Assembly: GCF_013122565.1 (NCBI RefSeq)
Contig: NZ_CP053258.1
From: Escherichia coli
Lineage (GTDB): Bacteria; Pseudomonadota; Gammaproteobacteria; Enterobacterales; Enterobacteriaceae
Direction: 5' to 3' (one strand)
Length of the DNA: 64,000 nucleotides
Shown: positions 33,401-36,400 of the stretch, piece after piece
Numbering within the stretch: the stretch's first letter is position 1
Layout: every line of letters starts with the position of its first letter
Program-made: the position numbers

Positions 33401-36400
33401 AGATTCATCTATAGTTATTGAACCTTCTTTTAGTGAATGTAAAATTCCTGAAAGAAGGATAGCCATAAATTTATCTATATATTTATTATCGATGGTACAA
33501 ACTAACTGCATGATATTCCTTATAACTTTCGCAACCATTGCTTGACGTTGAACAGTTCAAAAACCATCACAACAATTGACCAAAAGAAACAGACAAAATC
33601 AAAGTAAAGCATTAATGCCCCTACAATGGCACAATGCTTCAACGTCCAAGGTTCATCGCTATATAATTTGCGCACATAAAGCTTCAGTGCATTTATTTTT
33701 CTTAAGGCAATGCATGACCATAATAACACAAAGAGGAAACTCATTATCCAAAGATACAAACTATTTAACAAAACGAAATTAGAAACAAAAGAAATACTCC
33801 AGCCGACACCAATCAGTAATAAAACATACCACCGCGATGCCGTATTGATATTAAAACTCAAAGCCAACAGTATACTAAGGAGGAACATTGCCCCACCGAT
33901 GCCAAATAATAACCTGACAAACGCGATCGAAAAAAGGCTTGCTATGAGTATTGCGAATAGACTGATTATGGAAAAATAAATAATACATATTGCTAATGTG
34001 TTTATTTTCTCAATTTTCGTCCTTAATCCGTATCCAAAAATAAGAAGCAAGACAACGGCTAAAAAGAATGGTGCGGTATGTTGATGCGTTGCGGTAATGT
34101 TATAATAATCTGCTATCCATGCAAATCCTGCAGTTACCCATAAACCAACCGCTGTTATCAACCAGATACAGGCCATCATTCTGGTCATTAAAGGCTGTTT
34201 TTTCATTAAACCTGTCATTGTGATTTTTCCATAAATCATGACTACCACTGAAACCGTGAATGCCTTTGCCAGACAAGCGTTATCGCTATTGCTGCAAGAA
34301 TCCCAAAGAAGCCGATAAAATAGTAATAGAGTGTTAATGCACCTGTAACAGCGCAACGAACCGGACTCCACAACTCTTCGCTATGGCATTTTCCTGCCAG
34401 TTCAAGGAGCTTATTTCGTCCATGCGAGATAATGCCTGACCATAACACAATCATTAAGCAACTTATTACCCAAACGAGTCGTTCACTCATTAATGCGGCA
34501 TTCACGATGATCACCAGGGCCAACCCTGTCAACGTCATCATAATGATAAAACGATGAGAACCAGGATCAACATTAAATAATAAACCGGCCAGCATACTAA
34601 TTAAAAACATCGCGCCCGCAATGCTGAACACAAGGATAATGGCAGGTACAGGAACTAAACTAGCAACGACAATCGCCACCAAAGAGAGTAAAAACAGATA
34701 TATTACGCCTGCGATGGTGGCATTTATCTTGTTGATATACTTACTTAAGCCATACATACAAAGTAATAATAACCCTATGGCGACATACATAGGTGGTGAA
34801 TCATATTTGGTTGCCGTAATTTCGAGATACTTAGCTCCCCAGGCCAGTCCTGCGGTTGCCACCAAACCTAAAGCGGTAATGAGCCATACACCGTTTAATA
34901 TTCTGGCTTCGTGCTGAAATTCATTAGCTATGTTATTTGCTGAGCGCGATTTCATTATTTTTATATCCTTAAATTAAATATCAATATCTATTCCAATTAA
35001 CGTAATAAAACTCGTCAATTCGCACTACCACACTAAACCATTAATAAAGTCAAGAACTGTTACAGTAATTCTAAAGAGGACGCTTAAAATACTAAAATAG
35101 AGTGTTATTGCCCCAAGAACTATACAGCGAAGAGAACCTGAAATTTCAGAGGTGTCGGCAACACGGATCAAATCTTCCAGTGTTGTTGCTTCACAGGCAG
35201 CCGTAATGCCCCAGATAAAGACAGTCAAAATACTCGCTAACCACACGGAAAAACTGCTGGTAAGGATCAGGTTAACAACAAAAGCAATACTCAAACCACA
35301 GAAAATATATAAATATAACTGTCTGACTGGTGGGATAACCCTATTACTACAACAGCAAATCAGCGCCATTGCGGCAAACATCCCTCCCGTAATTCCCATT
35401 ACCGTCGCTATGCTCGAAAAGGTAAAAAGGCTGGCGAAGAGAAAGCCAATAAGCAGGATTATTAGCAGATAGACCAGACATGCGCCTGATGCATTGAGTC
35501 TTTTCAGGGCGTAGTTTAACCAAAGACCACCTATTATCAGTGCAGCCAAAGCGAAGACAAACGCGCCTGGAGACTTTCGTGACGTAACCCAATGCAAGTG
35601 CTGAAATATCCAGGCACAGCCTGCCGTAGCCCATACTCCAGCAGCTGTTAACCACCAAATGAGAAGCAGCATTTTGCTGAGCGAAGCACTTTTTTGCTGT
35701 AATTGAGTAGCAGTGGATTGTCTGTTCAAATGCGTTATCTGTCCCTGAAATTACGTAGTGGACATAGTCTGGCATTTGCAGCGACTGAGTTCTCATGAAA
35801 ATGAGCGAAACAGCCTTTATATAATCCGAAAAAATCCCGGCACCAGGCCGGGATCAGCAGGAAGAAGAGAATTTAACGGCGGTTGCCGAAGATCCGCAGC
35901 AACATCAGGAACAGGTTGATGAAGTCCAGATACAAGGTTAACGCGCCAAGAATGGAATATTTGCGCAGGTTCGACGTGTCGCGGGTATCAATCTGCTCAC
36001 CCATATTTTTCAATTTCTGAGTGTCATACGCCGTCAATCCGACAAAGACAATCACGCCGATGTAGGTAACTGCCCACATCAATGCTTCGCTTTTCAGCCA
36101 GAAGTTGACCAGCGATGCCAGCACAATGCCGATTAACGCCATAAACAGCATATTGCCAAAGCCGCTTAGATCGCGCTTCGTGGTGTAACCATACAGGCTC
36201 ATTGCGCCGAACATCCCGGCAGTAACGACGAAAGTACTGGCGATAGAAGCAGCGGTATAGACAATGAAAATACTGGAAAGCGTAAGACCCGTCAGCGCCG
36301 AATAAAGCATAAAGAGCATCGTCGTTACACCTGCGCTCAGCTTTTGAATCATCGCTGATAACACAATAACCAATGCTAATTGCGCGATGATCAGACCGAT

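What the first reader, a model, noticed from the sequence alone, without database searches (positions are those of the whole stretch)
35672..35729. BI-1 paralog A lacks an ATG near its expected N-terminus (TTG start or N-terminal truncation)
The reading frame opens at TTG 35729, and the first ATG (35672) would delete the cytoplasmic N-terminal segment present in paralogs B and C. Either a TTG start is used (weak AGGGA upstream), or this copy is partly degenerate.
Basis: seen in the sequence. Interest (0 to 1): 0.3.

Follow-up and report, generated by a model that had tools for sequence, protein, structure and literature searches.

The report
Conserved TTG start of YbhM-like gene
An accessory membrane-protein gene next to ybhL in this Escherichia genome most likely starts with the rarer start codon TTG, as does every sampled copy in other Escherichia genomes; this is ordinary and already annotated that way, not a truncation or an error.

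Summary
On the minus strand, the 234-codon frame of the Bax-inhibitor-like gene at 35025..35729 opens at TTG 35729. The first ATG, at 35672, is codon 20.

TTG is very probably the real start:
- It is present in all 27 copies I fetched and in all about 749 of 5,426 complete E. coli genomes that carry the gene.
- It lines up with the N-termini of ybhM, paralog C, YbhL and about 49 distant relatives. None of these has a tail-less N-terminus.
- Met20 is a conserved internal methionine of the family.
- The AGGGA-12 nt-TTG layout matches ybhM's AAGGA-10 nt-ATG.
- AGGGA pairs with the anti-Shine-Dalgarno sequence at -4.8 kcal/mol. The figure for ATG 35672 is -0.4.
- NCBI's PGAP pipeline already annotates this start (WP_001299026.1).

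The copy is not degenerate. The frame is intact, and dN/dS is 0.3-0.46, the same as ybhM.

Extra detail: an in-frame ATG 12 codons upstream (35765) is closed off by TAA in 734 of 749 genomes. It is open (CAA) in 15, where a 246-aa form is annotated. A further 53 genomes carry a 1-nt insertion just 5' of the TTG, and the frame from TTG is intact in the insertion copies read.

No experimental start mapping exists. Low interest.

The parts
35025..35729 (-). Coding sequence of BI-1/YbhM-like paralog A, 234 aa, from the TTG start to the TAG stop
   Evidence: ORF list. Pfam Bax1-I 51.4 bits. 96% identical to RefSeq WP_001299026.1, annotated with the same start. AF2 model pLDDT 87.4, all-helical.
35727..35729 (-). 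TTG, the proposed start codon
   Evidence: Present in 27/27 fetched copies. The three exact-word searches that cover the codon plus the 14 GGGG-type genomes give 682 + 53 + 14 = 749 carriers. Aligns with Met1 of the paralogs and of 32 relatives.
35742..35746 (-). Shine-Dalgarno-like AGGGA, 12 nt upstream of the TTG
   Evidence: Duplex with the 16S 3' end is -4.8 kcal/mol. Unchanged in all alleles except one A>G. Aligns with ybhM's AAGGA.
35670..35672 (-). First ATG, encoding internal Met20 (not the start)
   Evidence: Anti-SD duplex only -0.4 kcal/mol. The column is a conserved internal Met in the family alignment. The homologue P0021 has the same 'AAA ATG' 18 codons after its own ATG start.
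35751..35765 (-). Upstream in-frame ATG (35765) plus three codons and TAA (35753..35751), a closed mini-frame in the leader
   Evidence: TAA in 734 genomes and CAA in 15 of 749. The ATG is ATC in alleles L004 and L012. No SD (+0.4 kcal/mol).
35727..35778 (-). Possible leader hairpin: CAAAUGC (35778..35772) pairs with GCAUUUG (35733..35727, includes the UUG). UGUCC.CU (35764..35757) pairs with AGGGACA (35746..35740).
   Evidence: Local folds give -10.8 to -17.2 kcal/mol and z-scores of -0.8 to -4.1 in five alleles. There is no covariation. The 153-nt context gives z = -0.42. Unproven.
35829..35852 (-). ybhL intrinsic-terminator-like hairpin (CCCGGC-CTGGT-GCCGGG, then A and T6) upstream of gene A
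   Evidence: Read directly from the sequence. Conserved in all alleles. Not flagged by the consensus scan.

Best explanation
Gene A (35025..35729, minus strand) is an intact, accessory, YbhM-like member of the Bax-inhibitor-1 (Pfam Bax1-I) membrane-protein family. It lies between ybhL and ybhM in a low-GC variable island. Its translation most likely starts at UUG 35729, read as fMet. A weak Shine-Dalgarno-like AGGGA 12 nt upstream helps initiation. The product is a 234-aa protein with a 19-residue N-terminal tail ahead of transmembrane helix 1, as in its relatives. ATG 35672 encodes a conserved internal methionine. The weak start codon, the weak and distant SD and a possible occluding leader hairpin predict low expression. 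Shown here: the sequence facts, their conservation, the homology of the N-terminus and the annotation. Inferred: actual use of UUG by ribosomes, the expression level, and the cytoplasmic location of the tail.
For: 1. TTG is present in 27/27 fetched copies, including alleles at dS of about 0.3-0.4, and across the about 749 carrier genomes.
2. The ORF from TTG is intact in 25 of the 26 full-length copies.
3. Fifty-three genomes have a 1-nt T insertion immediately 5' of the TTG. The frame from TTG is intact in the copies read (L010, L015, L029), and PGAP calls the identical protein WP_001299026.1 there. So nothing upstream of the TTG needs to be in frame.
4. Met1 from TTG aligns with Met1 of ybhM, paralog C and YbhL. 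It also falls in a column at least 90% conserved across 33 sequences.
5. In about 49 full-length relatives from a library of 1.84 billion proteins, the N-terminus lies -6 to +13 residues from it, with a median near 0. None lies near -19.
6. The tails of the relatives (MNLFSAIRLHQ.., MPIFSAIRQHQ..) share residues with A's MNRQSTATQLQQ.
7. The syntenic homologue P0021 starts with ATG at the equivalent position and has an internal 'AAA ATG' like A.
8. AGGGA-12 nt-TTG aligns with ybhM's AAGGA-10 nt-ATG.
9. Anti-SD pairing is -4.8 kcal/mol for TTG, -0.4 for ATG 35672 and +0.4 for ATG 35765. Local structure is weaker at TTG (-8.3 against -13.9 kcal/mol).
10. The block from -45 to +13 around the TTG is the least variable part of the 5' region.
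11. PGAP and the metagenome gene callers all choose TTG.
Against: - No experimental start mapping was found.
- TTG is a weak initiator (general knowledge: roughly 3% of E. coli K-12 starts).
- The SD is weak and its spacer is long (12 nt).
- Codons 2-19 evolve about neutrally (12 nonsynonymous and 3 synonymous changes between the window and L004), so they carry no coding signature of their own.
- The Pfam domain match begins at residue 20, so a protein starting at ATG would still hold the whole domain.
- The constancy of TTG and AGGGA could instead reflect a leader hairpin or a DNA-level site. That hairpin, if real, would hinder initiation at the UUG.
Confidence: 0.8

Rival explanations
1. Translation starts at ATG 35672. 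This would give a 215-aa protein that begins directly with transmembrane helix 1. The TTG-to-ATG stretch would be 5' untranslated leader.
For: ATG is the strongest start codon. The Pfam Bax1-I match starts at residue 20. Codons 2-19 evolve about neutrally. ATG 35672 is present in all alleles. The UUG and its SD may be occluded by a hairpin.
Against: There is no SD (-0.4 kcal/mol) and more local structure (-13.9 kcal/mol). The sequence upstream of this ATG is the most variable part of the 5' region. The Met is a conserved internal position in relatives that clearly have translated tails. None of about 49 full-length relatives has a tail-less N-terminus. ybhM's tail is equally hypervariable yet follows its ATG start. 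No indel or stop occurs in the 57 nt in any allele.
Confidence: 0.1
2. The ancestral start is the upstream ATG 35765, giving a 246-aa form. The window lineage carries a CAA>TAA nonsense mutation at codon 5, so the copy is damaged and is expressed only by re-initiation at the TTG, if at all.
For: Fifteen complete E. coli genomes, Escherichia sp. MOD1-EC7003 and some metagenome alleles have CAA. They are annotated or called as 246-247 aa starting MSTTQFQGQITHL.
Against: TAA is present in 734 of 749 genomes and in three divergent allele classes. The most divergent alleles (L004, L012) have ATC in place of this ATG. There is no SD (+0.4 kcal/mol). Fifty-three genomes carry a frameshifting T insertion between this ATG and the TTG with the gene otherwise intact. 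The N-termini of relatives and paralogs align with the TTG, not 12 residues upstream.
Confidence: 0.04
3. Gene A is a decaying pseudogene-like duplicate that is not productively translated in this genome.
For: The gene is accessory (about 14% of E. coli). dN/dS of 0.3-0.46 is relaxed compared with ybhL at below 0.05. Several frameshifted alleles exist in databases (P0005, P0006, P0008, P0013, P0015, P0016, L009). The start signals are weak.
Against: The window copy has an intact 234-codon frame with gap-free alignment to its paralogs. dN/dS is well below 1 and equals that of ybhM, which BL21 keeps even without gene A. Of the 26 full-length copies, 25 are intact. The AF2 model is confident (pLDDT 87.4).
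Confidence: 0.06

Closest known systems
RefSeq WP_001299026.1, 'Bax inhibitor-1 family protein' of E. coli (for example strains TC24 and 2013C-3181)
   Same: Same gene, same position between ybhL and ybhM, 96% identical, 234 aa. NCBI's PGAP annotates the same TTG start.
   Different: The window allele differs by a few percent. The window genome is only about 98% identical to any complete E. coli genome in the moa operon. It also carries a third paralog (C) and extra small genes.
E. coli YbhM (b0787), the neighbouring paralog
   Same: Tandem neighbour and a Pfam Bax1-I member. Similar length (237 aa), a hypervariable N-terminal tail of about 18 residues, the same relaxed dN/dS, and a homologous AAGGA-spacer-start layout.
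   Different: Only about 24% identical to A. It uses ATG with a 10-nt spacer in an AT-rich, unstructured leader. BL21 keeps it even though it lacks gene A.
Canonical bacterial BI-1/TMBIM proteins: B. subtilis YetJ (PDB 4PGR), E. coli YbhL and YccA
   Different: A lacks both aspartates that YbhL shares with YetJ in the YD(T/L)xQ and LYLDFINLF motifs. A has CE and FS at those columns. That these residues form YetJ's pH sensor is from my own knowledge (Chang et al. 2014). phmmer finds no PDB hit for A. The function of A has not been tested.

Membership tests
Pfam PF01027 Bax1-I (BI-1/TMBIM/YccA family) | Profile score above the curated gathering threshold | tested here: met
   51.4 bits against a cut-off of 34.1, E = 1.5e-13, residues 20-221. 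Paralog C falls just below (31.7 bits).
Pfam PF01027 Bax1-I (BI-1/TMBIM/YccA family) | Seven-transmembrane-helix bundle resembling YetJ | tested here: inconclusive
Canonical BI-1/YetJ-type pH-gated Ca2+ leak channels | Di-aspartyl sensor (YetJ D171 and D195, in the YDxxQ and LYLDF motifs) | tested here: not met
   YbhL keeps both Asp, aligned to YetJ. A has E and S at those columns, B has G and Y, and C has K and D.
Orthologue group of WP_001299026.1 (ybhL-ybhM intergenic BI-1 paralog of Escherichia) | High identity plus a conserved position between ybhL and ybhM downstream of moaABCDE | tested here: met
   96% identity to P0001. Synteny is shared in L001-L003, L005 and L006.
Genes initiated at a non-ATG (TTG) start codon | Canonical alternative start codon with an SD-like element 5-13 nt upstream, conserved among orthologues | tested here: met
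   TTG is present in all copies. AGGGA lies 12 nt upstream with a -4.8 kcal/mol duplex.
Genes initiated at a non-ATG (TTG) start codon | Experimental proof of initiation at that codon (N-terminal peptide, initiation profiling or toeprint) | not testable with these tools
   No relevant data were found in the literature searches. BL21, the only laboratory strain I checked, lacks the gene.

The most novel reading that the evidence does not exclude
The near-invariant leader from about -50 to +11 (35778..35727) may be a cis-regulatory hairpin. It would sequester both the SD-like AGGGA and the UUG start codon. Expression of this accessory membrane protein would then be kept off until the structure is opened, for example by temperature, an sRNA, a protein, or an alternative transcription start that omits the 5' arm. 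The weak UUG would be part of that design. The variable leader sites fall in the loop (the TAA/CAA site) or are mostly structure-compatible (one U-A to U.G change), apart from a G>C break in two alleles and the 1-nt T insertion in the 3' arm.
Probability: 0.1. Interest if true: 0.3.

Novelty: already known. Interest (0 to 1): 0.07.

Why it matters
It matters little beyond correct annotation. The analysis confirms that the 234-aa TTG-initiated model used by RefSeq is the best one. It suggests that the 246-aa ATG-initiated models annotated in about 2% of carrier genomes are probably a longest-ORF artefact. It also shows that several 249-256-aa 'hypothetical proteins' in public databases are frameshifted copies fused to an upstream out-of-frame ATG. 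The locus may interest people who study the poorly understood YbhM-like branch of the BI-1 family: it forms a variable tandem array in a low-GC island and lacks the family's di-aspartate sensor.

Tried and rejected
- **Sequencing error or recent point mutation of an ATG.** Rejected: TTG is present in every orthologue sampled.
- **N-terminal truncation.** Rejected on N-terminal homology.
- **Upstream ATG 35765 as the true start.** Rejected on allele counts, the lack of an SD, the ATC alleles and the tolerated 1-nt insertion.
- **Promoter and terminator consensus scan of 34900..36000.** Nothing useful upstream of A.
- **Rfam scan.** Found only the Moco riboswitch and a sub-threshold terminator-like hit.
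- **phmmer of A against PDB sequences.** No hit.
- **Foldseek against PDB.** No significant hit.
- **NCBIfam.** No family for A, B or C.
- **GTDB species-representative scan.** Only two loci, one of them a 1.4-kb contig filed under a Collinsella MAG that carries the E. coli-type allele and is probably contamination.
- **Covariation test of the leader hairpin.** No informative variation.
- **Literature searches for ybhL and ybhM.** Only a promoter catalogue that lists ybhM's promoter with an H-NS entry.
- **BL21(DE3).** Checked in the hope of using published initiation-profiling data, but it lacks gene A.

Full report
**Observation**

All coordinates are on the minus strand. The window reads ...ATG TCC ACT ACG TAA TTT CAG GGA CAG ATA ACG CAT TTG AAC AGA CAA ... 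AGC AAA ATG CTG CTT....
- The 234-codon frame 35025..35729 opens after TAA 35753..35751.
- Its first canonical start is TTG 35729..35727.
- Its first ATG is 35672..35670, which is codon 20.
- AGGGA lies at 35746..35742, 12 nt upstream of the TTG.

The product passes Pfam Bax1-I at 51.4 bits against a cut-off of 34.1, with the match starting at residue 20. It missed an in-frame ATG at 35765 that is closed off after four codons by the TAA.

**Context**

The locus is moaABCDE, ybhL (35873..36577), A, ybhM or B (34242..34955), C (33520..34218), three small ORFs, then ybhN. It is preceded by the Moco riboswitch.
- The stretch 31967..35800 has 27-41% GC, against about 54% in the flanks.
- The moa operon is at most 98.1% identical to any of 5,426 complete E. 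coli genomes. The genome is therefore an Escherichia close to E. coli, though not in a densely sampled lineage.
- Gene A is accessory. About 749 of 5,426 genomes have it, and BL21(DE3) does not.
- In the GTDB species representatives it turned up only in Escherichia sp. MOD1-EC7003 and on a 1.4-kb contig filed under a Collinsella MAG, which carries the E. coli-type allele and is probably contamination.

**What orthologues show**

I collected 26 further copies from complete genomes, assemblies and metagenomes. The metagenome copies were found with a pattern inside helix 1, so the choice of copies was not biased towards the start region.

- TTG is present in all 27 copies, including alleles that differ from the window by dS of about 0.3 and 25% of residues.
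- The frame from TTG is intact in 25 of the 26 full-length copies.
- I counted alleles in the complete genomes with short queries that can only match by an exact 28-mer spanning the site. The normal GCATTTGAAC context is in 682 genomes. A GCATTTTGAAC variant is in 53. The remaining 14 are the GGGG-type CAA alleles, represented here by L003, which has the TTG. The total is 749.
- The 53-genome variant is a 1-nt insertion immediately 5' of the TTG. The TTG frame is intact in the copies I read, and PGAP annotates the same protein, WP_001299026.1, from the TTG. This acts as a natural frameshift test: nothing upstream of the TTG needs to be in frame.

**The upstream ATG**

- Codon 5 of the upstream frame is TAA in 730 + 4 genomes and CAA in 15.
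- Where it is CAA, annotators call a 246-247-aa protein beginning MSTTQFQGQITHL.
- TAA occurs in three divergent allele classes.
- The most divergent alleles have ATC instead of this ATG.
- The ATG has no Shine-Dalgarno pairing (+0.4 kcal/mol).
- No relative has an N-terminus 12 residues further out.

I conclude that the long form is most likely a longest-ORF call, and that the C/T site is a neutral leader polymorphism.

**N-terminal homology**

- With TTG as Met1, A aligns start-to-start with ybhM, paralog C and YbhL.
- A full HMMER scan of 1.84 billion representative proteins gave about 49 full-length relatives. Their alignments start at nearly the same residue number as in A: the offset runs from -6 to +13 with a median near 0. 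None is near the -19 that a start at ATG 35672 would imply.
- In a 33-sequence alignment, the Met1 column is at least 90% conserved. A's Met20 falls in a column where Met is the family consensus, the internal '[FL]M..VY.WM' motif.
- Relatives at 31-38% identity share a tail motif (MNLFSAIRLHQ, MPIFSAIRQHQ, MNTFSSIRLNQ). This shows the tail is translated in them, and it retains several matches to A's MNRQSTATQLQQ.
- One of these relatives, P0021, sits in the syntenic position (moaABCDE-ybhL-P0021-ybhQ) in another enterobacterium. It starts with ATG behind a GGAAG and carries the same internal 'AAA ATG' 18 codons later.

So the ATG/TTG difference is old and is fixed in all Escherichia orthologues sampled. 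It is not an error in this window.

**Initiation signals**

- A's AATTTC-AGGGAC-AGATAACGCAT-TTG-AA aligns with ybhM's AATTTA-AGGAT-ATAAAAATA-ATG-AA and with BL21 ybhM's AAGGAC-AACTAAAAGA-ATG. The ribosome-binding-site layout is therefore homologous.
- Pairing with the 16S 3' end is -4.8 kcal/mol for TTG, -0.4 for ATG 35672 and +0.4 for ATG 35765. The figure for ybhM is -5.9.
- Local folding energy around the start is -8.3 kcal/mol for TTG and -13.9 for ATG 35672.
- Across 17 unique alleles, the block from -45 to +13 has 3-4 variable sites per 30 nt. The stretch between the TTG and ATG 35672 has 9-12.

**Is the copy degenerate?**

No.
- dN/dS for A is 0.3-0.46 in all informative pairs.
- This matches ybhM (0.2-0.46, with one pair at 0.69). 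ybhL is below 0.05.
- Codons 2-19 evolve about neutrally. ybhM's tail is just as variable (MKSRSANN, MESYSKNS, MATSSSNN), so this is a property of the subfamily and not a sign of non-coding sequence.
- Frameshifted alleles do exist elsewhere. Gene callers fuse them to an out-of-frame ATG at the equivalent of 35796 or 35775, which produces the 249-256-aa 'hypothetical proteins'.

**What the protein is**

- It is a divergent YbhM-like member of the BI-1 family.
- The AlphaFold model is confident (pLDDT 87.4) and all-helical, with a helix running from residue 3 to 44.
- A, B and C lack one or both aspartates of the YetJ-type di-aspartyl sensor, which YbhL keeps.
- The function is unknown. I would not assume YetJ-like pH-gated calcium leak activity.

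**Caveat and side lead**

The 63-nt leader folds into one hairpin in five alleles.
- CAAAUGC pairs with GCAUUUG, which includes the UUG.
- UGUCC.CU pairs with AGGGACA.
- The energies are -10.8 to -17.2 kcal/mol and the z-scores -0.8 to -4.1.
- The variable sites fall in the loop or are mostly compatible. There is no covariation: 12 of 14 pairs never vary.
- The 153-nt context is not unusually stable (z = -0.42).

If the hairpin is real, it offers another reason for the constancy of TTG and AGGGA. It would also imply regulated, low expression. It does not change the N-terminal homology argument.

**Verdict**

This is an ordinary TTG start that is conserved and already annotated, with confidence about 0.8. 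The remaining possibilities are a start at ATG 35672 (about 0.1), a silent or decaying gene (about 0.06) and an ancestral upstream ATG (about 0.04). Only initiation profiling, N-terminal proteomics or reporter mutagenesis can settle the question.

Noticed in passing
window 31967..35800 (- strand genes): A low-GC island (27-41% against about 54%) lies between ybhL and ybhN. It holds three tandem YbhM-like paralogs, a DUF3969 protein (33134..33538), an unassigned 156-aa ORF (32587..33057) and a 195-aa ORF with a just-sub-threshold SUKH-4 immunity-protein match (31967..32554; 24.6 bits against 25.5). Gene content differs between Escherichia genomes, with one to three paralogs. The layout resembles arrays of orphan immunity genes, but this was not tested.
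   Followed up: partly
window 35347..35796 (-), overlapping gene A in another frame: A 149-codon ORF starts at ATG 35796. It stays open for 149-150 codons in most alleles, 94-115 codons in L003, L004 and L012, and only 23 codons in the 53 genomes with the T insertion. Only 0.65% of codon-order shuffles give so long an open alternative frame. It is probably a by-product. It explains database 'proteins' that fuse it to frameshifted copies of A.
   Followed up: partly
window 35727..35778 (-): A leader hairpin pairs the UUG start and the SD-like AGGGA with upstream invariant blocks. Energies are -10.8 to -17.2 kcal/mol and z-scores reach -4.1. There is no covariation.
   Followed up: partly
window 35753 (-) and the equivalent site in L001, L003, L006 and L008: A C/T polymorphism (CAA/TAA) decides whether annotators call a 246-aa ATG-started protein or a 234-aa TTG-started one. 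CAA is in 15 of 749 complete E. coli carrier genomes.
   Followed up: yes
window 33520..34218, 34242..34955, 35025..35729 (-): The YbhM-like paralogs A, B and C lack one or both aspartates of the BI-1/YetJ di-aspartyl sensor, which YbhL retains. They evolve at dN/dS of about 0.2-0.46, against below 0.05 for ybhL.
   Followed up: partly
window 39405..39549 (-): A Moco (molybdenum cofactor) riboswitch lies upstream of moaA (Rfam RF01055, 102 bits), as expected for this operon.
   Followed up: no
L007 (JAIJJM010000781.1, labelled 'Collinsella sp.' MAG): A 1.4-kb contig in a Collinsella MAG carries the E. coli allele of gene A at 96% identity. This is most likely binning contamination.
   Followed up: no
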